Origin: a virus | Taxonomy: Duplodnaviria; Caudoviricetes | Length of the DNA stretch: 64,000 nucleotides | IMG/VR virus record: IMGVR_UViG_3300037762_000184 | Span: 19,653-83,652 of that record | Direction: 5' to 3' (one strand) | In this document: positions 15,136-38,641 of the stretch, piece by piece | Position numbering within the stretch: position 1 is the first letter of the stretch | Layout: the number at the start of each line of letters is the position of its first letter | Translations under genes and position numbers: made by a program | The notes under the pieces: model-generated | The model's database searches: none | Told to the model about the DNA's origin: nothing | What the model saw: the letters and a program-made list of their open reading frames with translations, nothing else

Positions 15136-15575
15136 TGCTCGCTTCCTCCCCACCCTTCGGCTGCAACCTCTGCGGATGGACCGGCGACCGGAGCGCCACA
15201 ACGCTTCACCCTTCCGGCGCCCGCGGCTGCCCGGCCTGCACTGCTACAGAGGGCCTTACGCCCATCGCCGTGACTGGCGCGAAACTCGTGAAGGAGAGCG
15301 GGCTTGATGAACGGTTTTTCTCTCCTGCGATGCCTCCGGACACGCACCCTCTACGGTTAGAAGCGTGCCGTTCGTGCGGCGGGCCAACATGCCTAGACGG
15401 CGTGCGATACTTCTTCGCCTGGCCGTTCGGTGGCGTCGGCGAGACGGTAGCGCCAGGCCTCCAGGCGGAGCCTCTGTGCGATGGTTGCGAAAAGACTCTA
15501 AAGGCCAATGAAGTGCTCGCCGCGCTGCATCCCGACCACCGCATGCGCTTTCCTCAACGGGAGCATTCGCGCTGA
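15135..15575 (+). CDS. Cys-rich hypothetical protein
   Basis: Four CxxC pairs; coupled to the MTase start. Confidence 0.55.
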   Translation: MLASSPPFGCNLCGWTGDRSATTLHPSGARGCPACTATEGLTPIAVTGAKLVKESGLDERFFSPAMPPDTHPLRLEACRSCGGPTCLDGVRYFFAWPFGGVGETVAPGLQAEPLCDGCEKTLKANEVLAALHPDHRMRFPQREHSR

Positions 15576-16984
15576 TGCCCTCCCGCCCCACAGCAGGGAA
15601 GACCGACGAGCTGGCCTTGCGCTACGTCCCCCTCGACCAGGTGCAGCGGTGGGACCGCAACCCCAAGCGCCACGACTTCGGCGCTCTCATCCAGTCGATC
15701 CAGCGCTACGGCTTCAAGGACCCGCCGAAGGTCGAGCCGGCCCTGAACGGCGGGGAGGGTGGAGTTGTCGAGGGCAACGGTCGCGCCGAGGCCCTGGCGA
15801 TGATGCAGGCGGACGGCGCCGAGGCTCCCCGTGGCATCGCGGTCGACAAGCAGGGCCGGTGGTGCGTCCCGGTCCTCTTCGGCGTGGACGCTCGATCGAA
15901 GGCCGAGGCGGAAGCCTACGGGGTGGACCACAACAACCTGACGCTCTCCGGCGGCGACCTCGGGATCGACGCGATCCTCGGCATCTGGGATGAAGACCCG
16001 CTGCGCGACCTTCTCGCCAGCCTGGCGGCTGACGGCGAGATGCCGGTGTCTCTCGACGGCGACGACCTCGACGCGCTGCTGAACCATCCGGGCGAGGTAG
16101 TAGAGGACGAAGCCCCCGAGCCTTCGAACGAACTCCAAGAGAAGTGGCAGGTGAAGACCGGCCAGCTCTGGGGCATCGGACGGCATCGGGTGCTGTGCGG
16201 GGACTCGACGAAGGTGGAGGACACGGGGCGGCTGATGGGCGGAGAGCGGGTTGGACTCTGCTTCACCTCGCCACCCTACGCACAGCAGCGCGACTACACC
16301 GCAGAAGCGAAGGCGGGACTGGCGGATTGGGATGCGCTGATGCAGGGCGTCTTCGCGAACGTCCTGATGACCGACGACGGGCAGGTGCTCGTGAACCTCG
16401 GTCTCGTTCACAGGGACGGCGAGTGGCAGCCCTATTGGGACGGCTGGATTGCTTGGATGCGAGAGCAGGGATGGCGGCGATTCGGGTGGTATGTGTGGGA
16501 TCAGGGGGCTGGAATGATGGGCGACTGGAACGGTCGCCTCGCGCCGTCGTTTGAGTTCATCTGGCACTTCAACCGAGCGCCTGTGAAAGCGCGTAAGGCG
16601 CGGGAGTGTAAGCACGCGGGGGAGGCACACGGGGGCAAGGGGCAGCGCGGGGCAGACGGAACAGTCAAGGCGCGACACAGCGGCAAGGCGCCAGTGCGGT
16701 CGCATGCCATTCACGACAGCGTGCTCCGCGTTCCTCGCCAGGGCGCAGCGAGGGGGGCCCTTGGGCATCCAGCGCCGTATCCTGCCGGCCTGCCGGGACG
16801 CATCATCGAGTCCTGGCCCGGGAACGTCTACGACCCCTTCCTCGGCTCCGGCACCACCCTAATCGCAGCAGAGCAGCTCGGCCGCCGCTGTTTCGGCTTG
16901 GAGATCAGCCCGGAGTACGTCGCAGTCATCCTCGAGCGAGCGGAGAGGTTCGGGCTCACGCCGAAGCTGGAGAGCGATGGCTAA
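15575..16984 (+). CDS. ParB-like domain fused to N4-C/N6-A DNA methyltransferase
   Basis: RNPKRHD...SIQRYGF...VEGNGR; LGRHR-like GDST, FTSPPY, HPAPYP, VYDPFLGSGTT. Confidence 0.9.
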   Translation: MPSRPTAGKTDELALRYVPLDQVQRWDRNPKRHDFGALIQSIQRYGFKDPPKVEPALNGGEGGVVEGNGRAEALAMMQADGAEAPRGIAVDKQGRWCVPVLFGVDARSKAEAEAYGVDHNNLTLSGGDLGIDAILGIWDEDPLRDLLASLAADGEMPVSLDGDDLDALLNHPGEVVEDEAPEPSNELQEKWQVKTGQLWGIGRHRVLCGDSTKVEDTGRLMGGERVGLCFTSPPYAQQRDYTAEAKAGLADWDALMQGVFANVLMTDDGQVLVNLGLVHRDGEWQPYWDGWIAWMREQGWRRFGWYVWDQGAGMMGDWNGRLAPSFEFIWHFNRAPVKARKARECKHAGEAHGGKGQRGADGTVKARHSGKAPVRSHAIHDSVLRVPRQGAARGALGHPAPYPAGLPGRIIESWPGNVYDPFLGSGTTLIAAEQLGRRCFGLEISPEYVAVILERAERFGLTPKLESDG

Positions 16985-17358: not shown

Positions 17359-18657
17359 GTGGCGGCTCCGGCTCTCCTGCTAGAGACTCCCCGGGCCTTC
17401 CAGCCCCTACTCGCTCCGGCGAGGTACAAGGGCGCCCACGGTGGCCGCGGAGGCGCCAAGAGCTGGTTCTTCGCCGAGCTGCTGGTAGAGCGCTGCATCC
17501 TCCAGCCGGACACCCGCGCCGTTTGCGTCCGCGAGGTTCAACGCTCACTCGACCAATCGGTGAAGCGGCTCCTCGAGGACACCATCGCCCGGCTAGGCGT
17601 CGGCTCCCTGTTCCGCGTCCTGAATACGCATATCGAGACGCTTGCCGGTGGCCGCATCATCTTCCAGGGGATGCAGAACCACACGAGCGAGAGCATCAAG
17701 TCTCTGGAGGGCTACGATGTTGCCTGGGTAGAGGAGGCGCAGGCGCTCAGCCAGCGCTCCCTCGACCTGCTACGCCCCACGATCCGCAAGGACGGCAGCG
17801 AGCTGTGGTTCTCATGGAACCCCAAGAGCCCCGCGGACCCGATCGACTCCTTCCTCCGCGGCGAGAACCCGCCGCCTTCGTCCGTCGTGGTCGAGACGAG
17901 CTGGCGGGATAACCCGTGGCTGCCGGCGGAGCTGCGGACCGAGCTCGAATGGGATCGCCAGCGCGATCCCGGCAAGTACGCCCACGTTTGGGGCGGCGAC
18001 TACCTCCGGCGGACCGAGGCGCGGGTCTTCAATAACTGGACGGTGGAGGATTTCGACACGCCGGACGATGTGCGCTTCTACTTCGGCGGGGATTGGGGCT
18101 TCAGCGTGGACCCGGCGGTCCTTGTGCGCTGCTGGATCGACGGCCGGAAGCTCTACATCGACCGGGAGGCATACAAGATCGGGTGCGAGATCGACTACCT
18201 GCCGTTCCTCTTCGGCGGCATCGAAGATGAAGGGCTACGCCGGTTGAACGCCGAAGCCTGGAAGGCGATGCCTCAGGCGTACCGGGGATGGCAGGGGATC
18301 GATGGCGCGCGGGTCTGGCCGCTGATCGCCGATAGCGCTAGACCGGAAACGATCGACTACCTCAAGCGCCACGGATTCCCGAAGATCGAAGCGGCGCGGA
18401 AGGGGGCGGGGAGTGTCGAGGAGGGCGTCGAGTTTCTGCGTGCCCACGACATCGTGATTCACTCCCGATGCATCCACACCGCTGACGAGTTCGCGACCTA
18501 CAGCTACAAGACCGACCGGCTGACGGATGAGGTACTGCCGGTGCTGGAGGACCGCAAGAACCACGTCATCGACTCGGCACGCTACGCGGTGGAGAAGGTC
18601 CGCCAGGCTCCCAAGAAGGCAGCCGGCGTCTGGGGATCGCGGCGGCGCGGTAGGTAG
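17359..18657 (+). CDS. terL: terminase large subunit (PBSX-like)
   Basis: GGRGGAKS Walker A, CVREVQRS, WVEEAQ Walker B, GGDWGF and NHVIDSARYA nuclease motifs. Confidence 0.95.
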   Translation: MAAPALLLETPRAFQPLLAPARYKGAHGGRGGAKSWFFAELLVERCILQPDTRAVCVREVQRSLDQSVKRLLEDTIARLGVGSLFRVLNTHIETLAGGRIIFQGMQNHTSESIKSLEGYDVAWVEEAQALSQRSLDLLRPTIRKDGSELWFSWNPKSPADPIDSFLRGENPPPSSVVVETSWRDNPWLPAELRTELEWDRQRDPGKYAHVWGGDYLRRTEARVFNNWTVEDFDTPDDVRFYFGGDWGFSVDPAVLVRCWIDGRKLYIDREAYKIGCEIDYLPFLFGGIEDEGLRRLNAEAWKAMPQAYRGWQGIDGARVWPLIADSARPETIDYLKRHGFPKIEAARKGAGSVEEGVEFLRAHDIVIHSRCIHTADEFATYSYKTDRLTDEVLPVLEDRKNHVIDSARYAVEKVRQAPKKAAGVWGSRRRGR

Positions 18658-20515: not shown

Positions 20516-20883
20516 CGCTTCACCTCCACCACGAGCCCCTTGGGGCAAATCGACAAGCGAAACACTGTGTAGCCAAAGGTGAGCCCGTCCTCTTCGAACT
20601 CCACACTTCCCTCGATAGTCACATCCTTGACTTCGTGGTACCCCGGAGCAGACAACGCCTCAGAGGGCTCCAGAACGCGGCCGAATTGCGCTCTCGGTAA
20701 TGGAGCCACCCAGTGCTCGCGAAAGCCGTTGACTTGCACCGGAGTGACGAGGACGCGATCCTCTAGCGCTTCGCGCTCCCATTGCAGTGTCTCTTCGTCG
20801 ATCGGGGTGGTAATGGGAATGCCGCCCCGGTAGACGTAGCCAGGGGCCGGCTCGGCGGCGGTTGCGGTTGGGGTGCTAGGCAT
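20512..20883 (-). CDS. hypothetical protein
   Basis: CAGGAG RBS. Confidence 0.6.
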   Translation of the reverse strand: MPSTPTATAAEPAPGYVYRGGIPITTPIDEETLQWEREALEDRVLVTPVQVNGFREHWVAPLPRAQFGRVLEPSEALSAPGYHEVKDVTIEGSVEFEEDGLTFGYTVFRLSICPKGLVVEVKR

Positions 20884-21043
20884 GGGGTGTCTCCTGGTGG
20901 GTTGTGGTGGCGACTAGCCTCCGCGCCGCGATCTCTACGGCTGCGGAGCGTGAGAGTCCGTTCGCCTTTGCGTAGGCGTCGAGGATGCGCAGGGCCTCCT
21001 CGGTCAGCGTCAAGCTGGTTCGCCGCTTCGTGTCCTTGCTCAA
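20876..21043 (-). CDS. ribbon-helix-helix regulator directly downstream of the pentamer array
   Basis: AAAGGAGG RBS plus TTG; KRRTSLTLTEEALRILDAYAKANGLSRSAAVEIAARR. Confidence 0.8.
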   Translation of the reverse strand: MSKDTKRRTSLTLTEEALRILDAYAKANGLSRSAAVEIAARRLVATTTHQETPHA

Positions 21044-21073
21044 GTCGTCCCTCCTTTCAGGGTGGTTCATAGG

Positions 21074-21734
21074 ATGCCTGCCTAGCGACGTCTGTCCCCG
21101 CCTCGCCCTTCCGCTCCGCGCCTCGCCATTCCTGTCTAGCCTTGCCCGGGCTTGCCTGTCCAGGCCGCGCCACGCCTGCCGTGATTGCCACGCCCGGCCT
21201 AGGCTAGCCCGGCGATGCTCAGCCCAGCGACGCCTGCCTTGCCTTTCCAGTGCTCGCCCCGCCGTTCCGCGCCTTGCCTGCCGCGCCGTACCGGCTGTGC
21301 CTTGCACCGCCTAGCCGGGCCGATCCCTGCCGCCCCTCACCCCGCCTAACCGGTCCGCGCCTGCCGCGCATCTGCCTTGCCTCGCCTTGCCGCGGCAGGC
21401 CTGTACTAGCCCATTCTCGCCCTGCCTCGCCTGTCACGCCAACCCTTGCCTCGCCGCACCATGCCCCGCCCCTCCCTGCCTCGTCTAGCCTGCCTTGGCC
21501 GGCCAGTCCTCGCCTGTTCGCGCCGCGCCAAGCCGGGCGACCCCTTGCCTGCCGCGCCTTGCCTGTCCGAGCCTGTCGTGCCGAGCCCGGCCAAGCCACT
21601 CTGTGCCTAGCCCGTCCTAGTCATGCCTGCCGTGCCTATCCGGGCCGCGCCCCGCCTAGCCGGGCCTTGCCTGCGATGCCGCACCGTTCCCTACCGAGCC
21701 AGGCGGCGCCGGGGCTAGCCGGTCCCCGCCTGCC
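21074..21734 (-). repeat. GG(C/T/A)NN pentamer array, about 12 units (putative guide-RNA array)
   Basis: Minus strand parses as about 120 pentamers (ggcta ggcgg ggcgc ggccc ggata...) broken by 4-nt GGCA/GACA linkers roughly every 25-85 nt. Confidence 0.9.
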
Positions 21735-21743
21735 GCGTCGACT

Positions 21744-22244
21744 TTAGTGAATCGCCTTCACTGCCGAAGCCGCCGCGTCCATCGCTCGCATCGCGAGAGC
21801 GATCCTCGCCATGCGCTCGCTGTCCAGCGTACCGGCGGCGGCTGTCTCCAGATCCGCCAGCGCCCTGGCTGCTGCGTTCATCTTCGCGTTCAGCTCGCCC
21901 ACCGCCGCCGTGAACATATCCGGCGACCGGATCACCTGCTCGACGGGGTGGTAGGCGTCCTGGACGTGGACGTAGACCTTCGTCGCCAGCGGTTCCTCGC
22001 CGTCGCGATCCTCGACGACTTCGATGCTGCGGATCAGCTTGCGGGCCTGATGCTCCCGCCACTTCTCCCCGGCCACGCCGTTGTTCCACTCGAAAGCCGG
22101 ATGCAGGGCGGCCGTCTTCGGTCGCGCCTCCTCGACGACCTCAGCCGGCCGCAGCCCTTCGCGCTCCGCGTGGATGCGCTCCAGCTCTACGCCTACCGCC
22201 TCGGCGTCCACTCCGGCGGGACACCTCTTCAACCGAAACGTCAT
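21744..22244 (-). CDS. partner protein of the RAMP-like gene
   Basis: AEAVGVELERI...EVVEEAR...LHPAFEWNN...WREHQARKLIRSI; ATGA-coupled to the RAMP gene. Confidence 0.75.
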   Translation of the reverse strand: MTFRLKRCPAGVDAEAVGVELERIHAEREGLRPAEVVEEARPKTAALHPAFEWNNGVAGEKWREHQARKLIRSIEVVEDRDGEEPLATKVYVHVQDAYHPVEQVIRSPDMFTAAVGELNAKMNAAARALADLETAAAGTLDSERMARIALAMRAMDAAASAVKAIH

Positions 22245-22906
22245 GCTGCCGCCTCCTCTTCTTCGTTGACGATCTTGAACGTGCCGAACCCCATGCCGTT
22301 GCTCGACTTGGAGAACGGGCGACCTTCGCCGATGCCGACCTGTTCACCCGCACGAGCCACGAGGTTCGCCACGTCCTCGATAGTGAACTGGTCGGCGTCA
22401 TACCGGACCACGATGTTGAGTACCCACTTCCGCCACATGGGGCGGACCCGAATGTCGGCCACGCCGGTCGCGTTGCGGGTCGCCATTTCGGTACGCTCCG
22501 GCTCCCCGGCGTCGAGCTTGACGAGCGGCGCGCCGTCCACCGCGTCGAAGCCGTCCGCCTCGACGAAGACCGACATCTTCGCCCGCGTCATTTGGAAGCC
22601 GACCATCCGGCACACGTCGATACAGGCGTTCCGCAGCGCCGCCGCCGGGACGCCGATCCACCCGTCCGTCGAGCGGTGGAGTGCGCCCTCGAAATCGGCG
22701 TCGAAGTCGCGCGCCTCTCGCTTCGACCCCTTCTTGGCGGTACTGCCCGCCAGCATCTTCGTCTTCATCGCCTGCATCGCCTTGGCGCTGAACCTCGCCT
22801 GCATGAACGGCGCGGTGCCTTCGATGCGGAGCGAAAGACGGTGAAACTTCGGTGGGGTGATGCCGACGGCCGCCGGGGTGCTGGACTTCGTTCCTGCTGC
22901 TGCCAT
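22241..22906 (-). CDS. Cas7/RAMP-like (RRM-fold) protein, Vipr-like
   Basis: N-terminal strand LRIEGTAP, helix IGVPAAALRNACI, C-terminal Gly-rich loop AGEQVGIGEGRP...GMGFGTFKI. Confidence 0.75.
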   Translation of the reverse strand: MAAAGTKSSTPAAVGITPPKFHRLSLRIEGTAPFMQARFSAKAMQAMKTKMLAGSTAKKGSKREARDFDADFEGALHRSTDGWIGVPAAALRNACIDVCRMVGFQMTRAKMSVFVEADGFDAVDGAPLVKLDAGEPERTEMATRNATGVADIRVRPMWRKWVLNIVVRYDADQFTIEDVANLVARAGEQVGIGEGRPFSKSSNGMGFGTFKIVNEEEEAAA

Positions 22907-22959
22907 GAGAAATGCCTCCCTCGTTCACGTTCACGCACGGAATGCACGCGACGGGGCGC

Positions 22960-22988
22960 ACTATACGCGAATTCGGGCAGCATGTCCA
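22960..22988 (-). promoter_or_regulatory. promoter TGGACA-17-TATAGT for the RAMP operon
   Basis: Direct sequence; GAGGGAGG RBS before ATG 22906. Confidence 0.7.
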
Positions 22989-23019
22989 TGGTCGGGTCCA
23001 ACCATGGAAGCCGTGACCC

Positions 23020-23529
23020 TCACCACCTCTCCAATCCGAGGGTGATCGTTTCCGTCACCTGTTCATAGGTCAGGCCGAGCGCAACCGCTGTCGTGACCAG
23101 ACGATCTCGACCCGGCAGCCTCAAGCCGTACAGAACCGCCCACACGTCATCAGCGCTCATGTGGTCGAGACGCGACGCGATCTCGGCGCTTGTCGTGCGC
23201 GACGCGCGGGCTTGCTGCCGAACGAGTCGGCGAAGAGAGCGGCGCCCAATTCGCTCAGGGTCGTGCCGCGGCCTGGCCCTGTTGTAGCGCGGGTGTTCGT
23301 TCGTGATGGCTCGCTGCTCGGCGATAAGCGCTGCCGGCCGGCTCGACAGCCAATCGATGGCGATTGAGGCGACATCGGGCCACCAGAACTTCTCGTGCGA
23401 GTGAAGCGCGAACCGCGCGGAGGGATCGCACGAGATGCCGACATAGAGAAGGTTCCCGGCGGCGTCTACGGCGCGGTAGAGCGCCGTCGGACGCAACTCT
23501 TGGAGCGCTTCGCTGGCCCCGGCAATCAC
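23020..23529 (-). CDS. GIY-YIG domain plus C-terminal HTH protein
   Basis: ALYRAVDAAGNLLYVGIS...RFALH...E...AI..EHPRYN. Confidence 0.75.
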   Translation of the reverse strand: MIAGASEALQELRPTALYRAVDAAGNLLYVGISCDPSARFALHSHEKFWWPDVASIAIDWLSSRPAALIAEQRAITNEHPRYNRARPRHDPERIGRRSLRRLVRQQARASRTTSAEIASRLDHMSADDVWAVLYGLRLPGRDRLVTTAVALGLTYEQVTETITLGLERW

Positions 23530-23786: not shown

Positions 23787-23856
23787 TGCGGTTCCAATAG
23801 TACCGCATCGGTGCTTGTGCGCGCAACAAGCACCGGCCACCCTCATTTCGGGACTA

Positions 23857-26800
23857 GTGCGCGTGCCGAAAACCACAACCAACGGAAGCGGCAACGGCGC
23901 GGCCGAACCTCGCCTGCCGACCAGCCGTCTGCGCGCCATGGGCTCAGCGCTGGTGGCGCGCGCACGGCTTGCCTCACGGGCCGGGCTGAGCTTCGGCGGT
24001 AAGCGCGACTTCTACACTGCGCTCGGTTACGAGCGCGACCTCACAATTCAGCACTACCGCGAGCTATACGAACGCGGCGGTATCGCTCGAAAACTGGTCG
24101 ACCTCATCCCGACCCTGGCATGGACAGCCGGCGGCGCCGACATCGTGGAAGACCCGGACCCCGGCGAGCTCACGGAATTCGAGACGCAGGCTGCCGAGCT
24201 GTTCGCGCGCGTCGACGCCTGGCCTCGCTTCCGCCGCGCGGACATCCTTTCTCGTCTCGGCCGCTACTCCGTTCTGCTGCTCGGTACGTCAGACCTTGAA
24301 ACGCAGGCGGACTTCGCGCAGCCGCTGTCGAAGCTCTCCGGTCCGGACGACATCCTCTACCTCACGCCGAGAGCCGAGAGCCACGCGAAGATCTGCTCTC
24401 TCGTCAAGAAGCCTTCCGACCCGCGCTTCGGCCTGCCTGAGTTCTACAACGTCGATCTGGGGCACGACGAAGACAGCAAGGCGCTCCTCTCCGGAGGGAC
24501 GCAGAAAACCCACTGGACGCGCGTGGTCCACATTGCCGGCGGGCTGCTCGATAACGACGTGTACGGCGAGCCGGCCCTGCGTGCGTTGTGGAACCTCCTC
24601 TTCAACCTCGAAAAGCTGCTCGGCGGCGGCTCAGAGGCGACGTGGAAGCGGATGAACCCGCTGACGCTCTTCGACCTGAGCCCCGATGCCGTACTCGGCG
24701 ACACGCCCGCGGAGATCGAGGAAGCCGAAGAGGCGTTGGAGGACGAGATCGAAGAGCTGGTGCATGGGTACCGTTCCTATGCCCAGGCCACTGGTCTCGA
24801 AGTAAAGAGCATCAGTCAGGCGGTGCCCAACTTCGGGCCGAACGCGGCGGCAATCGAACGCCATATCGCGGGCACCGGAAACATCCCCCATCGCGTCCTC
24901 TTCGGAACGGAGCGCGGCGAGCTAGCCAGCGCGCAGGACCGCTCGAATCTCAGCGACAACGTCCAGGGCTACCGGGACAGCCACTGCAACGTGGTAGTCC
25001 GCCAGTTCCTCGCCCGCTTGATTGAATACGGCGCTCTTCCCGGGCCGGTCAAGCATGAGCTGGTATGGCCTGAGATGGAAGAGATGAGCGAGCCCGAAAA
25101 GGCCGACGTGGTCAGCAAGATGGCGACCGCGAACAAGGCCAACGTCGACGCAGGCGGCGGCCTGATCGTCGCCGCGAACGAGTTGCGGAACGACGTACTC
25201 GGCAAAGGGCCTATCGAAGAGATCGAAAACTCCGGGGTGGCCGAGGGAGGCGGCGACGGTGGTCCCTCCTCTGCCGTCGCCGCCTCCCTCCGGGCTGCGA
25301 AGCTCAGGCTGTGCCGGAAGCGCGGGCTGGACTTCGGGCCTGACTCTCCGGCCGCGCTTGCCGGTAACGAGGAGCCAGAGTGGCGCGCAGTCCACCGTGC
25401 TGCCGACTTGCACATGGAGTCTCTGGCGCGGGCTGTCGTCGGCGCCTGGGATGACGGAGCGGCGGAGATCGACGACGGCGCCCTTGAGGACGCGCTCGCC
25501 GCCGGCAACTTCGGTGCCGCCGAAACCGTCGCGCTCGCCGGTGTCACTGCCGCCGAGCAACGTCTCGCCGAGATCCTGCCTGACCGACTACTCGCCACCC
25601 TGGTAGATGGTGGCCTCGCCGCTCTGCGGTCCGCTCGGTCGCGCGGTTCTTTCTTCCGCCGCGCCGCGGGATTCTCGGCGCAGTTCGATGCGACCAACCC
25701 GCGCGCCGTCACGTGGGCGGAGGAGCGTTCCTCGCTGCTGATCACGGAGATCGGCGTCGAAACGGTGTCGGCGATGCAGGCGCTCATCGCGCAGGGCCTC
25801 GCCGAGGGCATCCCGCCCCGGAAGCTGGCGCAGCAGATTCGGGCTGCGGTAGGGCTGCGCTCGGATCAGGTGTCGGCCGTCCAGAACCTCATCACGGAGT
25901 TGCAGGCGGCGAAGCCCGGCTCGCTGGTGACGCGCTTCCCTCCGCGGGAGGGCCTGCGTGGCTCTGCCGGCTTCAAGGCTCGCATTCCGAAGAGCGGCAT
26001 CACGCAGGAGTGGTTGGACCGGCAGGCGGCGCGGTACTCGACGATGCAGCGGAACTACCGAGCCAGAACAATCGCTCGCAGTGAAACAATGAGAAGTGCG
26101 AACGAGGGTGTCCGCGAGCTTTGGAGGCAGGGCCAAGAGTCCGGTCAGCTCCCAGCGGATATCAAGCGGGTCTGGCTTCACAACACTGATCGCCACGCAG
26201 ACCGGGCCGGGGTGGCGGTAGGCATTGACGAGCCTTGGCCGTGGGGAACCGAGCCGGGCGAAGAGGTGAACTGCTTCCTACCTGGAACGGATGTCAGCGG
26301 CGCGTTCGTGGCTGGCCTAAAAACCCTCTATGCGGGGCCGGCTATCGAAGTAGCCACCCGGCAGGGTCACCGGCTGCGCCTCACGCCCAATCACCCCGTA
26401 CTGACTTCGCAAGGTTGGTTGCCGGCGAAGAGTCTCCGCAAGGGCCAGCAGCTTGTCTGCTGCCTTCCGGAGGTTGATCTTCTGTCGAGCGGAGCCCTGC
26501 TCGGGGGCGAACGTCCCGCCAGCGAGGCGTTCTCTCGGCCGAGTCCATCCGTGCCGCGAGCCGTTGGGCGACGTGGCGCAGACGACGATCAGGGACCAAC
26601 CCTGATTGAGGACGTATTCGAAGCGCTTGCGTCTCAGGGCGCCTTGGCGCGCAAAGGCTGTACTGGTCTCGATCTCCACGGCGATGCGAAGTGGTCGGAT
26701 GGCGAGGTCCAGATTGTAGGGGCCGAGAGGGAACTGGTGCGTTACCTTGATTCCGCCGCGTCTCAGGAGAGCAGCGAGCTCATGTTCGAGAGGGCTGGTG

Positions 26801-27222
26801 TGATTCGCGCGCTCGCAGTTGGTGCGAGCCCTGGCAATCCTGGCTTCCAGAGGGTCGACGCGCCCCCGTCTGGCTTTCCACGCGGCGCTGAGTTGGCGGC
26901 GGACAGCCTCCCCGCCCTGCGCCTTGATGGACCTCCACTTCAGCCTCTGCGCGTCGGCCCTGCCGCGTATCTGGACACCGTTAAGCCGAAAGCGCCTCTC
27001 GATACACCTGCGGCTGAGTCCCGTTTCGTCGGCGAGCTGCTTCATGGAGGCGCCGGCCTTGTAGCGTTCGATGAGGTTGTGCAGGTTCGGGATTTCTCGT
27101 TCCGCGGACACGTCTTCGATCTCCAGTCTGTGACGGGTTGGCTTTCCGCTGGCAACATTATCACAAGCAACTGTGGCTGCGCACAGGGCATCGAAGATCC
27201 CGCGCGGGCGGAGGCGGCGTGA
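23857..27222 (+). CDS. portal protein (DUF1073-like) fused to head morphogenesis MuF domain, intein-containing
   Basis: YERGGIARKLVD, ADILSRLGRY, IPHRVLFG portal motifs; RARTIARSE and EEVN|CGC MuF motifs; single open frame; start uncertain. Confidence 0.85.
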   Translation: MRVPKTTTNGSGNGAAEPRLPTSRLRAMGSALVARARLASRAGLSFGGKRDFYTALGYERDLTIQHYRELYERGGIARKLVDLIPTLAWTAGGADIVEDPDPGELTEFETQAAELFARVDAWPRFRRADILSRLGRYSVLLLGTSDLETQADFAQPLSKLSGPDDILYLTPRAESHAKICSLVKKPSDPRFGLPEFYNVDLGHDEDSKALLSGGTQKTHWTRVVHIAGGLLDNDVYGEPALRALWNLLFNLEKLLGGGSEATWKRMNPLTLFDLSPDAVLGDTPAEIEEAEEALEDEIEELVHGYRSYAQATGLEVKSISQAVPNFGPNAAAIERHIAGTGNIPHRVLFGTERGELASAQDRSNLSDNVQGYRDSHCNVVVRQFLARLIEYGALPGPVKHELVWPEMEEMSEPEKADVVSKMATANKANVDAGGGLIVAANELRNDVLGKGPIEEIENSGVAEGGGDGGPSSAVAASLRAAKLRLCRKRGLDFGPDSPAALAGNEEPEWRAVHRAADLHMESLARAVVGAWDDGAAEIDDGALEDALAAGNFGAAETVALAGVTAAEQRLAEILPDRLLATLVDGGLAALRSARSRGSFFRRAAGFSAQFDATNPRAVTWAEERSSLLITEIGVETVSAMQALIAQGLAEGIPPRKLAQQIRAAVGLRSDQVSAVQNLITELQAAKPGSLVTRFPPREGLRGSAGFKARIPKSGITQEWLDRQAARYSTMQRNYRARTIARSETMRSANEGVRELWRQGQESGQLPADIKRVWLHNTDRHADRAGVAVGIDEPWPWGTEPGEEVNCFLPGTDVSGAFVAGLKTLYAGPAIEVATRQGHRLRLTPNHPVLTSQGWLPAKSLRKGQQLVCCLPEVDLLSSGALLGGERPASEAFSRPSPSVPRAVGRRGADDDQGPTLIEDVFEALASQGALARKGCTGLDLHGDAKWSDGEVQIVGAERELVRYLDSAASQESSELMFERAGVIRALAVGASPGNPGFQRVDAPPSGFPRGAELAADSLPALRLDGPPLQPLRVGPAAYLDTVKPKAPLDTPAAESRFVGELLHGGAGLVAFDEVVQVRDFSFRGHVFDLQSVTGWLSAGNIITSNCGCAQGIEDPARAEAA
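26272..27171 (+). mobile_element. intein (300 aa) in the MuF domain
   Basis: CFLPGT start, LTPNHPVLT block B, VFDLQS block F, TSN|C end; splicing restores GEEVNCGC. Confidence 0.9.
26317..27111 (-). CDS. HTH plus DUF559/Vsr-like endonuclease, antisense within the intein
   Basis: SPLEHELAALL...QFPLGPYNLDLAI...IAVEIE...GWSLI; N-terminal YKAGASMKQLADETGLS HTH; GGAG RBS before GTG. Confidence 0.75.
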   Translation of the reverse strand: MSAEREIPNLHNLIERYKAGASMKQLADETGLSRRCIERRFRLNGVQIRGRADAQRLKWRSIKAQGGEAVRRQLSAAWKARRGRVDPLEARIARARTNCERANHTSPLEHELAALLRRGGIKVTHQFPLGPYNLDLAIRPLRIAVEIETSTAFARQGALRRKRFEYVLNQGWSLIVVCATSPNGSRHGWTRPRERLAGGTFAPEQGSARQKINLRKAADKLLALAETLRRQPTLRSQYGVIGREAQPVTLPGGYFDSRPRIEGF

Positions 27223-28895
27223 CCACTCCCCGCTTCACCATCCTCGCCGCGCAGGTCAACCCGGCGCAGATCCATACGGCGAGAGCCGAAGACCGCGACT
27301 ACCTGGTTCTGCCGGTCGTCGCGCTGGTCGGCGACTCCGTGGTTCGTCCTCTCAACTCTGACGGTCCGGAGTTCGTGCCGCTTCGCGAGCTTGCCGTGGC
27401 TCCCGGTCAGTGGGCTGGGCGCCCGATCGTCGCCGATCATCCGGCCGGCGGAACCGGCTCCGCCAACGACCCAAAGGTGTTGGAGGCGCAGCGCTACGGC
27501 TGGGTTTACTGCTCGGATATTCAGAACGGGAAGCTCTGCGCCGAGGGCTGGCTCGACCCCGAGCGCGCCGAAAAGATCGGTGGCGATGCCGTCCGCGTCG
27601 TCGATGTCGCCCGTCGAGCGATGGCTGGCGAGGAGGTCGACCCGGTCGAGGTGTCGGTCGGCTGCTGGGTGACGCTGATCCGCGAAGACGGCGTCTCGCC
27701 CAGCGGCGTGCCCTATGAGTACCGATGGACAGGCGTCGCCAGCGATCACCTTGCCGTCGGCCTGAACGGGGCCACAGGGGCATGCAGCGTCGACTCAGGG
27801 TGCGGAGCGCCAAGAGCGGCGCAAGCCCTTGAGGCGGCCGCACTTTCCGGCGAGAACGCCACGAGCCCGCAGCCCCCGATCCAGATCAACGAACCGAAGG
27901 CGGTGCTCCGCGCTGCCGAGCAGGAGAAAAACACGATGAAGCTTCCGAAGCGAATCCTCGACGCGCTGGCCGCGACGCTGGGTTTCCGAGCCTCAGCCGA
28001 GGACGAAGGCCCATCCGATGTCGACCTCCGCGACGCCCTGTACGCAGCTCTTCGCGCCATCGAGGCGGGTTTTGACTGGATTGCGGAGGTCTATCCGGAC
28101 AGCTCGACCGTGATCTACACCACGTTTCCGGAGGACGCGATGCTCTGGTGGCGCCGGAGCTACGCCGTGGCCGAGGACGGGACGGTGACGCTCGCCGACG
28201 ACCGCGAACAGGTCGAGCCGGTGACGCGGTACGAGCCGCTCGCCGCGAAGACGGACGGCGACCCTGAGCCCGAGCAGAAGCCTACCAATCACCCCGCGAC
28301 CGCGAAGGCGGCTTGCGGATGTCCGACGAAGGGCGAAGGGCTTGCCGCCCCCGCCCCGAAACAGAGCGAAGGAGTGACCATGGAGAAGGTCAAGGAACTG
28401 GTGGGGCGGCTGATCGCCAACGAGGCGAGCCCCTTCACTGACGAGGACCAGGCGGGGCTGGAGGCGCTCAGCGAGGCGAAGCTGGAGGCTCTCGACGCAG
28501 CGCTCCAGCCGGGCGAGTCCGCACCCGAGCCGGAGCCGGCACCCGCGCCGACGCCGGTGGCCGAAGAGCCGGCCGACGACGACGACACCGTCAAGCTCTC
28601 GCGAGAGGAGTACGACGACATCAAGGCGTCCGCCGCAGCCTACAAGGCGCAGCAGGCCGCGATGAAGGCGAAGCTCGTGGCCCAGCTCAAGGGCGCGCAG
28701 GACGCCTACAGCGAGGCCGAACTGGCGGCGATGCCCATCTTCGCGCTGGAGAAGGTCGCCAAGCTGGCGAAGGTCGAGCCGGCGCCTCAGCCGAGCTATG
28801 CCGGGCGTGGTCTGGCGAGCGACGAAACCGACAACCGCGTCCCGCCGCCGCCCGACTTCGGCGAGGCCGTCCGCGCTCTCCGTAGCGTGGCGTAA
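27219..28895 (+). CDS. prohead protease/scaffold (DUF2213-like)
   Basis: EVSVG, DHLAV...GACS..GCG motifs; acidic scaffold C-terminus; before the capsid genes. Confidence 0.85.
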   Translation: MTTPRFTILAAQVNPAQIHTARAEDRDYLVLPVVALVGDSVVRPLNSDGPEFVPLRELAVAPGQWAGRPIVADHPAGGTGSANDPKVLEAQRYGWVYCSDIQNGKLCAEGWLDPERAEKIGGDAVRVVDVARRAMAGEEVDPVEVSVGCWVTLIREDGVSPSGVPYEYRWTGVASDHLAVGLNGATGACSVDSGCGAPRAAQALEAAALSGENATSPQPPIQINEPKAVLRAAEQEKNTMKLPKRILDALAATLGFRASAEDEGPSDVDLRDALYAALRAIEAGFDWIAEVYPDSSTVIYTTFPEDAMLWWRRSYAVAEDGTVTLADDREQVEPVTRYEPLAAKTDGDPEPEQKPTNHPATAKAACGCPTKGEGLAAPAPKQSEGVTMEKVKELVGRLIANEASPFTDEDQAGLEALSEAKLEALDAALQPGESAPEPEPAPAPTPVAEEPADDDDTVKLSREEYDDIKASAAAYKAQQAAMKAKLVAQLKGAQDAYSEAELAAMPIFALEKVAKLAKVEPAPQPSYAGRGLASDETDNRVPPPPDFGEAVRALRSVA

Positions 28896-28910
28896 GGGAG
28901 GACACAGAAC

Positions 28911-29321
28911 ATGGCAAGCAAGGTCATCGCACTGCGGGGCGAGCCGATCATCGACGAGCAGCACACGGCGTCGGAAGCGATCACCCCGGGACACCTGATC
29001 GAACTCAACGCCGGGCAGTGGCGCAAGCACGCCGGTTCCGGTGCCGCGGCTGCGGCCGTCTTCGCGATGGAACGCGACGAGATCGGCAATGGCATCGACG
29101 TCGCCTACGCCGCCGGCGATCACGTCAAGGCCGGTTACTTCGCGAAGGGCGACCGCGTGAACGCTCTCATCCCCTCCGGTCAGGACGTCGACGACGGCGC
29201 CGAGATCGAGTCAGATGGCGCCGGACGTCTCAAGGCCGGAACCACGAAGCCAGTGGCCCGCGCAGCAGCCGACAGCGGCGCCGTCACCGCCGACACCCGT
29301 CTCCCGGTGATCATCGTCTAG
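28911..29321 (+). CDS. head decoration/cement protein
   Basis: ASEAITPGHLIE; position before the MCP. Confidence 0.7.
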   Translation: MASKVIALRGEPIIDEQHTASEAITPGHLIELNAGQWRKHAGSGAAAAAVFAMERDEIGNGIDVAYAAGDHVKAGYFAKGDRVNALIPSGQDVDDGAEIESDGAGRLKAGTTKPVARAAADSGAVTADTRLPVIIV

Positions 29322-36140: not shown

Positions 36141-38641
36141 TTTTCGTGGGCGACTCGCCGACGGTGGACACCGGATTTTCGCGTTGCACCCGCGCGGCCT
36201 GCGCCGAGCTTCACAACGCCGGCCATGAGGTCCACGTCCTCGGCATCAATGAAAGCGGCGACCCGCACGACTATCCGTATCCGATCTATCCGCCGCGGAG
36301 CTTACGGGACCGCTCCCGTAGCGCGTTCGGCATGGATCGGCTGCCTGCGCTCTCGGCACGCCTAAAGCCTGACGTGGTGGTTCTGCTCACGGACCCGTGG
36401 CACGTCCCCGCGTACCTCGCCGCATTCGAGGACGCCGGGGTGGAGTGCCCGCCGATGGTCGCGTGGCTGGCGGTGGATTCCAAGAACCACCCGAACAGCG
36501 CGGAGTTGAACCCACTCGCTCACATCGTGACCTGGACGCAATTTGCGCAGGATCAGCTGCGTGCTGGTGGCTACACCGGGCCGGCCTCCATCGTGCCGCT
36601 CGGCGTGGATACTTCGCTCTTTTACCCACGCGATCGCGCTGCCGCCCGCGCTGAGCTGCGGGCCATCAGTGGCGCCGAAGTCTTCGGGCCGGAGGATTAC
36701 ATCGTCGGATATGTGGGAAGGAACCAATCGCGCAAACGAGTAGATTTGCTGATCGGTTACTTCGCCGAATGGATCACCCGCTACAACATCCGTGACGCCT
36801 ATCTCTACCTCAAGGTGGCGCCGACAGGGGAGTCAGGGTGTGACATCCGCAGCGTCGCCACCTACTACGGCAAGGCGGTGGAAGGCCGCCTGCTGGTGTC
36901 CGCACCGCCGGCCGGATTCGGCGCTCCCGACGACCTCATGCCGCTCGTTTACAGCGCGATGGACGTGTATCTCACCACCACGCAGGGCGAGGGCTGGGGC
37001 CTTTGCGTCAGCCCCGACACACTGATTCAGACTCCGCAGGGTGCCCTCCCGATGCGCGACATTTCGTCCGGCGACCGGGTGATGACTCAGGACGGATCGT
37101 TCCATGACGTGCGCGCAAAGATCACGCGCGAGGACGAGGTGATGCGGGTCAAGGTCGCCGGATCGCCAGCACTGACGGTGACGCCGCAGCATCCGTTCCT
37201 GGTCTTGCCGCGGCGCTCTGCTCCGCAGGACTACTACCGACGGCATCCCGAGGCGCCGCGCTGGACCCGCGCTGACGAGTTGCGCGAGGGTGATCTGGTG
37301 GCTTGCCCTCGCCCTCCGTGGTCTGACTCTTTACCCGACTCCTTTGATCTTGCCGAAGCCGCCGACTCGCGCACGAAGATGGACGAGGACGCGATCTGGC
37401 ACCCCATGGGATTCTCGCCCCGTGACCGACGGCAGTCCCTGTCTGCGATCGCGGCCACTCATGGCGTTTCTAGTCGCGTTGCCGAGGACGCCGTGGCGTT
37501 CGCGAACGGGTCAGCCACGCCGGTGCGCGCGCAGTCGGCGTCCCGCGCCCTTGCCGAGACGCTCGGTCCGATGCCGAAGGCACAGCCGGTCAAGCTCTGT
37601 CGCCGGGTGCCGGTCAACGCGCGAACCTTGGAGTTGCTCGGCTGGTTCCTTGCTGAGGGCTCGACGGGAGGCGGGAACAGGGTCGAGATTGACCTGCACG
37701 CGCGCGAGCTGCCGGTCGCCGAACGCCTCGCTGAAACCTTCCTGACCGCATTCGGTGCCGAAGCGACCATCGAGCGCAACGGCCCGAACAAGTGCCGGGT
37801 CCGTGTCTGCTCAACGCTGCTTGCCCGATGGTTTCGCCAAATGTGCGGCAACGGTGCGCGTAACAAGAGGTTATCCCCCGCGCTCTGGCGTAGCGCGGCC
37901 CATCTCGGACCGCTGGTCGCTGCATACTTCCGCGGAGACGGCTACTGGCAAGGTAACGGGTGGCGGGTGACGACGGCCTCTACCGACCTCGCTTGGCAGA
38001 TCCGCATGGTGCTAGCCGCGGTCGGTATCCACGCGTCGGTCCGCAGGCTTTCGCGTGAGCGGGCGTGGGCGGTCGATGTCTGCGGTGCGCCGGCAGAACG
38101 GTTCTCTCAGTGGTGCGGGCTACCAACGCGAGCGGACCGTACTCGCAAGGCGGGGAAGACAGCCCTCACCCGCGAAGACTTCATCTTCGTTCCGGTGCGG
38201 AAGATTCACAGGACCGGCGAGCGCTCTGTGGTGATGGACATCGAGGTGGACAGCGTCCATAGCTTTGTCGGTGCTGGCGTGATCCTTCACAACACGACTC
38301 ACGAGGCGATGGCGTGTGGGGTTCCGTGCATCGTGCCGGACTGGTCGGCCCTCGGGGAGTGGACGGAGGACGCGGCGATCAAGGTCCCGTGTACCTCGAC
38401 GGCTCTCACGGCACCGCTGAATCAGTTCCCCTACACCATCGGCGGGGTGCCGGACAAGGAAGCGACCATCGCGGCCCTGCATGCCCTCTATTCGAGCCGG
38501 GAGCTGCGCGACGAGCACCGCGAGCGAGGACTGGCGCTGACGGCGCGCCCGGAGTACCAGTGGAGCAACGTGGGCGTGGCCTTCCGCGAGACGCTGGAGC
38601 GGGTGCTGGAGCCCGCGGCTGCCGGTGAGGTGGCCGCCTGA
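36131..38641 (+). CDS. glycosyltransferase family 4, intein-containing
   Basis: TGFSR, VGRNQSRKR, EGWGL|TTHEAMACG after splicing. Confidence 0.9.
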   Translation: MRLIFVGDSPTVDTGFSRCTRAACAELHNAGHEVHVLGINESGDPHDYPYPIYPPRSLRDRSRSAFGMDRLPALSARLKPDVVVLLTDPWHVPAYLAAFEDAGVECPPMVAWLAVDSKNHPNSAELNPLAHIVTWTQFAQDQLRAGGYTGPASIVPLGVDTSLFYPRDRAAARAELRAISGAEVFGPEDYIVGYVGRNQSRKRVDLLIGYFAEWITRYNIRDAYLYLKVAPTGESGCDIRSVATYYGKAVEGRLLVSAPPAGFGAPDDLMPLVYSAMDVYLTTTQGEGWGLCVSPDTLIQTPQGALPMRDISSGDRVMTQDGSFHDVRAKITREDEVMRVKVAGSPALTVTPQHPFLVLPRRSAPQDYYRRHPEAPRWTRADELREGDLVACPRPPWSDSLPDSFDLAEAADSRTKMDEDAIWHPMGFSPRDRRQSLSAIAATHGVSSRVAEDAVAFANGSATPVRAQSASRALAETLGPMPKAQPVKLCRRVPVNARTLELLGWFLAEGSTGGGNRVEIDLHARELPVAERLAETFLTAFGAEATIERNGPNKCRVRVCSTLLARWFRQMCGNGARNKRLSPALWRSAAHLGPLVAAYFRGDGYWQGNGWRVTTASTDLAWQIRMVLAAVGIHASVRRLSRERAWAVDVCGAPAERFSQWCGLPTRADRTRKAGKTALTREDFIFVPVRKIHRTGERSVVMDIEVDSVHSFVGAGVILHNTTHEAMACGVPCIVPDWSALGEWTEDAAIKVPCTSTALTAPLNQFPYTIGGVPDKEATIAALHALYSSRELRDEHRERGLALTARPEYQWSNVGVAFRETLERVLEPAAAGEVAA
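37004..38293 (+). mobile_element. intein (430 aa) with LAGLIDADG endonuclease
   Basis: CVSPDT start, VTPQHPF, LLGWFLAEGS and AAYFRGDG motifs, ILHN|T end. Confidence 0.9.

What the first reader, a model, noticed from the sequence alone, without database searches (positions are those of the whole stretch)
21074..22988. Phage Cas7/RAMP-like gene, partner gene and GG(C)NN pentamer array: candidate RNA-guided system without CRISPR
Seen: a TGGACA-17-TATAGT promoter precedes a 221-aa gene, a translationally coupled 166-aa gene and then a 660-nt array of GG(C/T/A)NN pentamers, all on the minus strand. The 221-aa protein has RAMP/Cas7 hallmarks (first strand LRIEGTAP, helix VPAAALRNA, C-terminal Gly-rich loop GIGEGRP...GMGFGTF). 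No cas1, cas2, cas3 or repeat-spacer array is present in the window. Knowledge: Cas7-family RAMPs polymerise along a guide RNA with a fixed nucleotide period. Inference: the protein binds each constant triplet and presents the variable dinucleotides, giving a programmable gapped recognition code, plausibly against competing phages. From memory this matches a recently reported phage system called VIPR (RAMP protein with GGY/NN RNAs); that link needs checking. The host lineage, GGC bias and partner gene may be new.
Basis: partly seen in the sequence, partly recalled or inferred. Interest (0 to 1): 0.95.

Follow-up and report, generated by a model that had tools for sequence, protein, structure and literature searches.

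The report
VIPR RNA-guided system in a phage
This complete 84-kb phage genome carries a VIPR system (a small Cas7-like protein, a partner gene and an array of about twelve GGC/NN pentamer guide RNAs), a kind of CRISPR-independent RNA-guided DNA silencer first described in 2026, so it is a new example of a known system rather than a new kind.

Summary
The minus strand carries a sigma-70-like promoter (22988-22960), a 221-aa gene (22906-22241), a 166-aa gene that overlaps it by ATGA (22244-21744), and a 650-nt array of YNNGG pentamers (21733-21082). This is the only such array in the 83.6-kb genome.

The 221-aa protein folds as a single-RRM RAMP (pLDDT 93; Csm3/Cas7, Z 11.4). It is homologous over its full length to the experimentally characterised SUSP1 Vipr protein (hhalign 95%, E 2.7e-8).

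Across 83 homologous loci, 76 have a same-strand pentamer array beside the gene. A homolog of the 166-aa partner sits downstream wherever sequence is available.

VIPR was published in bioRxiv preprints from April 2026, with follow-ups in October 2026.

Local particulars:
- The array is tail-less and "staggered": 12 units, mostly of length 5n+4, delimited by GGCAGGC.
- The base after GG is A in about 20% of units.
- The stacking Trp of SUSP1 Vipr is an invariant Gly in this clade.
- The partner protein is unrelated to SUSP1 Vap1.

No natural target was found, and there is no self-target above background. The host is unknown.

Verdict: a new member of a known kind. Earlier notes of this scan on the same DNA described the same array grammar.

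The parts
22960..22988 (-). Sigma-70-like promoter, TGGACA-17 nt-TATAGT, upstream of vipr. A 7-bp inverted repeat (CCATGGT-N8-ACCATGG, 23007-22986) overlaps the -35 element.
   Evidence: the only hit in the region, 10/12 matches, shuffles give 0.3. The inverted repeat was read. Function is inferred, not shown.
22241..22906 (-). vipr: a 221-aa single-RRM RAMP protein with a thumb hairpin (about 137-158, containing R155) and a Gly-rich loop (191-209, GIGEGRP...GMGFG).
   Evidence: AF2 pLDDT 93.4. Csm3/Cas7 matches with Z 11.4 and Foldseek E 3e-6. SUSP1 Vipr (PDB 36pp) by profile, E 1.6e-6. hhalign to the phiSUSP1 ORF: 95.2%, E 2.7e-8, residues 23-214 against 3-189. phrog_4652.
21744..22244 (-). 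vap-like accessory gene, 166 aa, translationally coupled to vipr by an ATGA overlap. Conserved motif VVExARP..SPLH..FEWNN..A..YR..QAR.LIR. Function unknown.
   Evidence: phrog_15946. A homolog lies directly downstream of vipr in 15/15 loci and in 64/68 IMG/VR loci, where the four exceptions are cut by a contig end. No Pfam, PDB, NCBIfam or PADLOC family. Unrelated to SUSP1 vap1.
21082..21733 (-). vrRNA array: 12 tail-less units of YNNGG pentamers. Each unit starts with RCAGG and ends with a 4-nt YNNG, so the register slips by one base at most of the 12 unit boundaries. Unit starts: 21733, 21674, 21630, 21576, 21552, 21493, 21434, 21364, 21281, 21237, 21179, 21135. A closing GCAGGC lies at 21081-21076.
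   Evidence: The array starts 10 nt after the vap stop codon with no terminator between them. No Rfam family or ribozyme. No significant fold, z -1.6.

Best explanation
This is a VIPR (Viral Interference Programmable Repeat) locus of a complete, probably temperate, 83.6-kb tailed phage.

Proposed mechanism:
- One promoter transcribes vipr, the accessory gene and the downstream array as a single RNA (inferred).
- The RNA yields about 12 vrRNAs of 24-83 nt, mostly 44-59 nt, or 9-12 pentamers (inferred from sequence).
- Vipr protomers polymerise one per pentamer. They sequester each GGC and expose the two variable bases (by homology to SUSP1 Vipr).
- The filament then recognises double-stranded DNA that matches NNxNNx..., skipping every third base, and silences transcription of a competing mobile element (by homology; no target was found here).

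Unlike the SUSP1 type, the vrRNAs have no structured 3' tail. Neighbouring units abut with a one-base register slip at a conserved GGCAGGC. I infer that this slip is what ends one filament and starts the next.
For: RAMP fold:
- AF2 pLDDT 93.4.
- Every top PDB match is Csm3/Cas7, with Foldseek E 3e-6 and VIA Z 11.4.

Homology to the characterised SUSP1 Vipr:
- phmmer E 0.0025.
- Profile E 1.6e-6.
- hhalign 95.2%, E 2.7e-8, over nearly the full length.

RNA-contact residues (contacts, mapping):
- Thumb R138 maps to R155, conserved in 65/68 relatives.
- R179 maps to R196, conserved in 68/68.
- D177 maps to E194.

Array:
- 5-nt period with fixed GG, a C-rich third base and variable NN.
- It is the only such array in the genome.

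Linkage in relatives:
- 15/15 loci and 61/68 IMG/VR loci have a same-strand array next to vipr. Only 1/68 has an opposite-strand array.
- A Vap homolog is downstream in 15/15 and 64/68 loci.
- Delimiter spacing is 4 mod 5 in 78/101 and 284/391 cases, against 20% by chance.

Other support:
- The published description matches: two-gene phage loci, GGY/NN vrRNAs of 9-16 repeats, and staggered arrays with 1-nt overlap.
- NN usage fits codon positions 1+2 or a uniform distribution (lnL -248.6 and -246.8). It fits frames containing the GC-rich wobble base much worse (-276 to -288).
- There is no self-target above scrambled-guide background, as reported for other VIPRs.
Against: - No RNA, binding or silencing data exist for this locus or for any staggered array. 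The preprint says only the ribozyme and single-vrRNA architectures were confirmed by sRNA-seq.
- No natural target was found. Exact NNx patterns from four guides gave nothing meaningful in IMG/VR, and patterns from two guides gave nothing in JGI metagenomes. There was nothing above background in 94 kb of relatives' loci.
- Two SUSP1 guanine contacts are not conserved: W178 is an invariant Gly, and H17 is Ala here.
- The pyrimidine pocket residues E71/M72 are A94/C95 here, and 20% of units carry A where SUSP1 excludes purines.
- About a quarter of units lack a perfect GG.
- Four of the 12 units are irregular: units 7, 8 and 10 break the 5n+4 length rule and unit 4 has only 5 pentamers (24 nt).
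Confidence: 0.9

Rival explanations
1. The array is protein-coding or otherwise not a guide RNA. Several ORFs of 60-165 aa overlap it on both strands, and relatives annotate such arrays as genes. In this reading the RAMP-like protein acts alone, for example as a general RNA-binding protein.
For: ORFs 21219-21599(-), 21250-21747(+) and 20876-21307(-) span the array. In Mycobacterium phage Donkeykong the equivalent array is annotated as CDS gp48.
Against: A strict 5-nt period with one-base register slips cannot keep a reading frame. The conserved bases are GG and C while the two bases between them vary freely. The translations are low-complexity Arg/Gly/Ala. The array is on the gene's strand in 76 of 83 loci although its sequence is not conserved. 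The open frames are what a stop-poor 67% GC sequence gives.
Confidence: 0.02
2. The array works at the DNA level, for example as G-rich repeats forming G-quadruplexes, a recombination hot spot or a packaging or replication signal. In this reading its proximity to the RAMP gene is incidental.
For: GG every 5 nt on one strand could form two-tetrad quadruplexes. The locus sits between the terminase and portal genes.
Against: The same array grammar accompanies Vipr homologs in unrelated genomic contexts, such as early and recombination regions next to RecT or repressors. The arrays fill intergenic gaps inside the operon. The orientation is tied to the gene (61 same-strand against 1 opposite). SUSP1 arrays of the same kind are shown to be RNAs bound by Vipr.
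Confidence: 0.03
3. The locus is a decayed or inactive VIPR remnant: the protein is intact but the guides are degenerate and no longer direct anything.
For: 30 of 119 units lack GG, four units are irregular, 20% of units have A at the pyrimidine position, and no target was found.
Against: Both genes are intact, translationally coupled and preceded by a good promoter. [quoted passage not shown] A-rich third positions also occur in other relatives (L015 58%, L016 18%). The target search was limited to exact matches for four guides.
Confidence: 0.05

Closest known systems
VIPR systems (Vipr protein + vrRNAs; bioRxiv 10.64898/2026.04.26.720920, 10.64898/2026.04.26.720927 and 10.64898/2026.10.15.759431), prototype Escherichia phage SUSP1 (type II)
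   Same: - Phage-encoded two-gene operon without cas1/2/3 or a CRISPR array.
- A protein of about 200 aa with a single-RRM RAMP fold, thumb and G-loop, homologous to SUSP1 Vipr over its full length.
- The thumb Arg and G-loop Arg are conserved.
- Same-strand arrays of GG-pyrimidine/NN pentamers in units of about 9-13 repeats.
- No self-targeting.
   Different: - 22% identity to SUSP1 Vipr over the aligned columns.
- GGC rather than GGT, with A in about 20% of units.
- W178 becomes an invariant Gly, H17 becomes Ala, and E71/M72 become Ala/Cys.
- No 3' tail or pseudoknot.
- 12 contiguous units in one array downstream of vap, and none upstream of vipr.
- The accessory protein is unrelated to Vap1 (hhalign probability 0.1%).
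'Staggered vrRNA arrays' of the VIPR preprint (fig. [quoted passage not shown]
   Same: Units abut without spacers or tails. The last base of each YNNG(R) unit is the first base of the next RCAGG, which is a 1-nt overlap and register slip. This grammar is conserved across the clade.
   Different: Only the figure legend could be read, so identity with the published architecture is inferred. The GGCAGGC delimiter and the 5n+4 rule are not stated in the text I could read. The preprint reports no sRNA-seq confirmation for this architecture.
Cas7-family RAMPs of type III CRISPR-Cas (Csm3/Cmr4)
   Same: Best structural matches (Z 10-11.4 over about 150 residues): RRM core, thumb hairpin, Gly-rich loop. 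These proteins polymerise along a guide RNA with a fixed period.
   Different: - 7-16% sequence identity.
- No partner Cas proteins, crRNA repeat or CRISPR array.
- Period of 5 nt rather than 6.
- By homology the target is dsDNA read through a gapped code, not RNA.

Membership tests
VIPR system | Vipr protein: minimal single-RRM RAMP with thumb and glycine-rich loop | tested here: met
   AF2 pLDDT 93.4. Top PDB folds are all Csm3/Cas7, Z up to 11.4. Thumb hairpin 137-158 and G-loop 191-209.
VIPR system | Sequence homology to an experimentally characterised Vipr (SUSP1) | tested here: met
   PDB 36pp 'SUSP1 Vipr protein': E 0.0025 with the single sequence and 1.6e-6 with the profile. hhalign to phiSUSP1 ORF 28474-29061: 95.2%, E 2.7e-8, 172 columns.
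VIPR system | Adjacent same-strand tandem YNNGG (GGY/NN) repeats, at least 4 units, with NN variable | tested here: met
   119 in-register units: C 74% / N / N / G 89% / G 84%, with 16 different NN. Unique in the genome.
VIPR system | vrRNA-sized units of roughly 9-16 repeats | tested here: met
   Units of 59, 44, 54, 24, 59, 59, 70, 83, 44, 58, 44 and 54 nt. Relatives mostly give 44-64 nt. Boundaries are inferred from sequence only.
VIPR system | Minimal vipr + vap locus, no cas1/2/3 and no CRISPR array, on a virus or provirus | tested here: met
   Coupled 166-aa gene conserved downstream in relatives. No Cas1. No CRISPR-like repeats. Complete virus record with terminal repeats and head and tail genes.
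VIPR system | GGY-contacting residues of SUSP1 Vipr (H17, R138, D177, W178, R179; pocket E71, M72, C173) | tested here: inconclusive
   R138->R155 and R179->R196 are conserved. D177->E194 is conservative. W178->G195 (invariant Gly in 68/68), H17->A37, E71/M72->A94/C95 and C173->V190 differ. The binding mode is probably modified rather than lost.
VIPR system | vrRNAs are expressed and co-purify with Vipr | not testable with these tools
   Needs sRNA-seq and pull-down.
VIPR system | Natural targets under the 1-nt skip (NNx) rule in competing mobile elements; no self-target | tested here: inconclusive
   No self-target above scrambled controls. No exact target in IMG/VR for 4 guides, the 2 hits found being chance, and none in metagenomes for 2 guides. 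Nothing in relatives' loci. The collection scans could only take exact matches.
VIPR type II (SUSP1 / P. fulva clade) | vrRNA with conserved structured 3' tail (pseudoknot) and a vap1 accessory gene | tested here: not met
   No tail between units. No significant fold. No Rfam hit. Vap is unrelated to vap1. The locus is therefore not type II. Which of the other six types it belongs to could not be decided because the supplementary data are not held.
VIPR with ribozyme-interspersed arrays (types I/V examples) | Hammerhead ribozymes between vrRNAs | tested here: not met
   Rfam scan of 20800-23100 at E<=1 found nothing, and units abut directly.
CRISPR-Cas (class 1) | Repeat-spacer array plus adaptation and effector cas genes | tested here: not met
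   No Cas1 in the whole genome. No direct-repeat array. The neighbouring genes are RHH, GIY-YIG-like and unknowns.

The most novel reading that the evidence does not exclude
In this large Vipr clade, which includes Cluster F mycobacteriophages, guide boundaries may be set by a one-base register slip at a conserved GGCAGGC and not by a structured tail or a ribozyme. In that case the protein filament itself would act as the ruler that cuts a continuous array into guides. The clade-specific accessory protein (invariant His/Trp/Arg/Tyr, no known fold family) would be the processing or effector partner. The relaxed third-base pocket (Trp->Gly, A tolerated) would mark a distinct repeat-recognition mode.
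Probability: 0.25. Interest if true: 0.5.

Novelty: new member of a known kind. Interest (0 to 1): 0.35.

Why it matters
The report confirms that sequence reading alone recovered a true VIPR locus, and it adds a complete 84-kb GC-rich phage to the family.

It also gives a quantitative grammar for the tail-less staggered arrays: units of length 5n+4 delimited by GGCAGGC, holding in about 75% of 492 delimiter spacings across 83 related loci. The preprint shows this architecture but does not report testing it by RNA sequencing.

The same clade occurs in isolated, culturable Mycobacterium and Gordonia phages. There the array is currently annotated as a protein gene. Vipr-vrRNA processing, the role of the second accessory family and the natural targets could therefore be tested in M. 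smegmatis.

The finding does not change the picture of VIPR biology.

Tried and rejected
- **Single-sequence AF2:** pLDDT 50, unusable. I repeated it with a 68-sequence alignment.
- **Curated libraries:** Pfam, NCBIfam and PADLOC hold no family for either protein. PHROGs gives only unknown-function families.
- **Vap:**
  - A profile against the PDB gave only noise, E > 0.5.
  - Pfam on 18 members gave nothing consistent.
  - The Atlas gave only viral hypothetical clusters, plus a DUF4494-named cluster at TM 0.66.
  - hhalign to SUSP1 vap1 gave 0.1%.
- **Own-genome target search:** guides were tested at skip lengths 0-3. Only the array itself matched (at skip 3). The best 1-nt-skip hit was 18/22 for unit 6 in the portal gene, against a scrambled maximum of 17, so it is not significant.
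- **Collection target scans:**
  - IMG/VR exact NNx patterns for units 8, 7, 1 and 6 gave 0, 2, 0 and 0 hits. The two hits were low-GC contigs whose flanks do not extend the match.
  - JGI metagenome scans for units 8 and 6 gave 0 hits.
- **Relatives' loci:** our guides against 94 kb of relatives' loci, and 51 relatives' guides against this genome, gave nothing above background.
- **Host:**
  - Relatives cannot be drawn for a virus record.
  - The terminase's nearest isolates infect Xanthomonas and Rhizobium at 47-57% identity, which is uninformative.
  - Vipr relatives in MAGs come from many phyla.
- **Neighbouring genes:** the RHH, 123-aa and GIY-YIG-like genes were considered as parts of the system and rejected, because they are absent next to Vipr in relatives.
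- **VIPR type (I-VII):** could not be assigned because the supplementary data are not held.
Full report
**What is there**

The window is bases 19653-83652 of a complete IMG/VR virus record of 83,652 bp with direct terminal repeats. It is 67% G+C and carries a large terminase, a portal/head-morphogenesis fusion, a capsid protein and a tape-measure gene.

Between terminase (17359-18657, +) and portal (23815-27222, +) lies a block of minus-strand genes. Within it:
- A sigma-70-like promoter, TGGACA-17-TATAGT, at 22988-22960. It is the only such site in 3.4 kb, against 0.3 expected.
- A 221-aa ORF at 22906-22241.
- A 166-aa ORF at 22244-21744, whose ATG overlaps the first gene's TGA (ATGA).
- Starting 10 nt after that stop, with no terminator-like site between, a G-rich array that runs to about 21082.
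- Then the ribosome-binding site and TTG start of a small ribbon-helix-helix gene (21043-20876; RHH_1, E 1e-7).

**The array**

Same-base autocorrelation on the minus strand is 0.49 at lag 5, against 0.23-0.25 at lags 2 and 3. It stays at 0.44-0.47 at lags 10, 15 and 20.

Parsed in register, the array falls into 12 blocks. Each block begins with RCAGG and ends with a 4-nt YNNG, so the register slips by one base at most of the 12 boundaries. Written as GGY/NN, the junction reads GGC-NN-G(G/A)C-A-GGC.

Block lengths are 59, 44, 54, 24, 59, 59, 70, 83, 44, 58, 44 and 54 nt. Nine of the twelve are 5n+4. Blocks 7, 8 and 10 contain irregular stretches.

Over 119 in-register units the five positions are C 74% (A 18%), N, N, G 89%, G 84%, and all sixteen NN dinucleotides are used.

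A scan for at least 8 of 10 in-phase GG finds this region and nothing else in the 83.6-kb genome, while shuffled genomes give 0.1 hits. There is no Rfam family or hammerhead ribozyme and no fold beyond shuffles (z -1.6). The ORFs that overlap the array cannot be real, because a 5-nt period with register slips does not preserve a reading frame.

**The 221-aa protein**

Pfam, NCBIfam and PADLOC have no family for it. PHROGs places it in unknown-function family phrog_4652.

It belongs to a very large family: 3,016 clusters at 90% identity with E <= 0.001 and 2,395 representatives at 50% identity.

With a 68-sequence alignment (A1), AlphaFold2 gives pLDDT 93.4 and pTM 0.86. The single-sequence model had failed.

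Foldseek against the PDB returns only type III/VII Cas7-family RAMPs at the top (Csm3, E 3e-6). VIA-align gives Z 11.4, rmsd 3.5 A over 151 residues to Csm3, and all 50 best entries are Cas7-type subunits.

The protein alone hits the PDB chain 36pp_D, 'SUSP1 Vipr protein', at E 0.0025, and the family profile hits it at E 1.6e-6.

I fetched phage phiSUSP1 (KT454805.2). Its 195-aa ORF 28474-29061(-) aligns to A1 with hhalign probability 95.2%, E 2.7e-8, covering residues 23-214 of the window protein against 3-189.

Mapping the RNA contacts described in the cryo-EM preprint onto this alignment, and onto column frequencies in A1, gives:

| SUSP1 residue | Role | Here | Conservation in A1 |
|---|---|---|---|
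| R138 | thumb Arg | R155 | 65/68 |
| R179 | G-loop Arg | R196 | 68/68 |
| D177 | G-loop acid | E194 | not tallied |
| W178 | stacks on the second G | G195 | Gly in 68/68 |
| H17 | guanine contact | A37 | N or H in most relatives |
| E71/M72 | pyrimidine pocket | A94/C95 | not tallied |

So the fold, the filament-forming elements and the two key arginines are kept. The details of guanine and third-base recognition differ.

**What is known**

VIPR systems were reported in April 2026 (bioRxiv 10.64898/2026.04.26.720920). The published description includes:
- Phage-borne two-gene loci (vipr + vap).
- vrRNAs of 9-16 YNNGG repeats.
- One Vipr protomer per repeat.
- dsDNA recognition by the NN bases with one skipped base per repeat, giving transcriptional silencing of competing phages or satellites.
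- Seven types and six vap families.
[quoted passage not shown] S18 legend).

A structural companion paper, an in vivo SUSP1-satellite study and a language-model survey that recovers 99 VIPR-like array clusters followed.

**Linkage in relatives**

I examined 15 independent loci:
- Metagenome contigs with Vipr at 77% identity.
- Cyanophage Cy-LDV1 at 63% and Mycobacterium phage Donkeykong at 33%.
- Eight MAG contigs from many phyla.

Every one has GG-pentamer arrays on the gene's strand within about 1 kb, and none elsewhere. Every one also has a homolog of the 166-aa protein immediately downstream.

In 68 further IMG/VR loci:
- 61 have a same-strand array and only one has an opposite-strand array.
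- 64 have the Vap homolog, and the other four are cut by a contig end just after vipr.

The delimiter G(G/A)CAGG(C/A) recurs at spacings of 4 mod 5 in 78 of 101 cases and 284 of 391 cases, against 20% expected. Typical spacings are 44-64 nt. The tail-less staggered grammar is thus a conserved property of this clade.

In relatives the arrays fill every intergenic gap of the operon: upstream of vipr, between vipr and vap, and after vap. Here the two genes are fused by overlap, and all units lie in one array after vap.

**The accessory protein**

It evolves much faster than Vipr. Only nine clusters are found by word-seeded search, and it is 25-48% identical across loci whose Vipr proteins are 48-77% identical.

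The alignment shows a conserved N-terminal motif, VVExARP..SPLH..FEW(N/D)(N/D)..A..YR..QAR.LIR. H48, F51, W53, A58, R63 and Y98 are invariant, and the C-terminal part is helical.

It has no Pfam, PDB, NCBIfam or PADLOC relative. It is unrelated to SUSP1 vap1 (BLASTP E 28, hhalign 0.1%). The ESM Atlas finds only viral hypothetical clusters, plus one DUF4494-named cluster at TM 0.66. Its function is unknown, and whether it equals one of the published vap2-6 could not be checked.

The neighbouring RHH, 123-aa and GIY-YIG-like genes are not found next to Vipr in relatives, so they are not part of the system.

**Targets**

I took the NN strings of the 12 units and searched the phage's own genome with 0-3 skipped bases. 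Only the array itself matched (at skip 3). Under the 1-nt rule the best hit was 18/22, against a scrambled-guide maximum of 17. There is thus no self-target, as reported for other VIPRs.

Collection scans gave no real target:
- Exact NNx patterns of 9-10 repeats from units 8, 7, 1 and 6 found nothing in IMG/VR apart from two chance hits in low-GC contigs whose flanks do not extend the match.
- Patterns from units 8 and 6 found nothing in JGI metagenomes.
- Nothing exceeded background in the relatives' loci, in either direction.

The collection scans accept only exact matches, so this is a weak negative.

One indirect point supports the skip rule. NN usage is close to uniform and fits codon positions 1+2 of this phage's genes (lnL -248.6). 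It fits frames that include the GC-rich wobble base (-276 to -288) or genomic dinucleotides (-256) much worse. That is expected if the skipped base falls on the wobble position in GC-rich targets.

**Mechanism: what is shown and what is inferred**

Shown here:
- The gene order, coupling and promoter-like site.
- The periodic array and its grammar.
- The RAMP fold and the homology to SUSP1 Vipr.
- The conserved linkage of Vipr, Vap and same-strand arrays.

Taken from the literature on SUSP1 by homology:
- One protomer per pentamer.
- GGY sequestered and NN exposed.
- dsDNA recognition with a 1-nt skip.
- Transcriptional silencing of competitors.

My inferences:
- The array is co-transcribed with the operon.
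- The vrRNA boundaries lie at the GGCAGGC slips, where the register break ends one filament and starts the next.
- Nucleases trim whatever the protein does not protect.

**Verdict**

This is a true VIPR locus (confidence about 0.9), not of the SUSP1 type II, with a staggered tail-less array and a different accessory family. It is a new member of a known kind.

The host is undetermined. Earlier first-reader notes on this same DNA describe the same 5n+4/GGCAGGC grammar. I had derived it independently.

Noticed in passing
L007:1965-2310 (Mycobacterium phage Donkeykong NC_051648.1, about 36,885-37,230): A GGC/NN pentamer array with GGCAGGC delimiters lies directly upstream of the Vipr homolog gp49, but it is annotated as protein gene gp48. 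gp50 is the Vap homolog. 25 Mycobacterium and 5 Gordonia phage records carry the Vipr homolog, so culturable models of this VIPR clade exist and their annotation probably contains a false CDS.
   Followed up: partly
window:22986-23007: A 7-bp inverted repeat, CCATGGT-N8-ACCATGG, overlaps the -35 hexamer of the vipr promoter. It may be an operator.
   Followed up: no
window:20512-21043: A ribbon-helix-helix (CopG-type) gene with a TTG start follows the array directly, and a 123-aa gene of unknown family overlaps its stop codon. The pair is not found next to Vipr in relatives and may be a separate regulator or toxin-antitoxin-like module.
   Followed up: partly
window:23020-23646: A 208-aa minus-strand ORF upstream of vipr matches phage endonuclease families (phrog_3312, E 2e-18) and weakly matches GIY-YIG. 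It is probably a homing endonuclease.
   Followed up: no
window:23815-27222: A 1,135-aa ORF fuses portal (residues 59-476) and head-morphogenesis/minor-head regions.
   Followed up: no
L015:1212-1966 and L016:4079-4268: Arrays next to Vipr homologs in a Peregrinibacteria MAG and a Dehalococcoidia MAG have A after GG in 58% and 18% of units. The 'pyrimidine' position is therefore relaxed in parts of this clade.
   Followed up: partly
window:9838-11427 and 15575-16984: Two DNA methyltransferase-like genes, one of them fused to a ParB-like N-terminal domain, lie upstream of the terminase.
   Followed up: no
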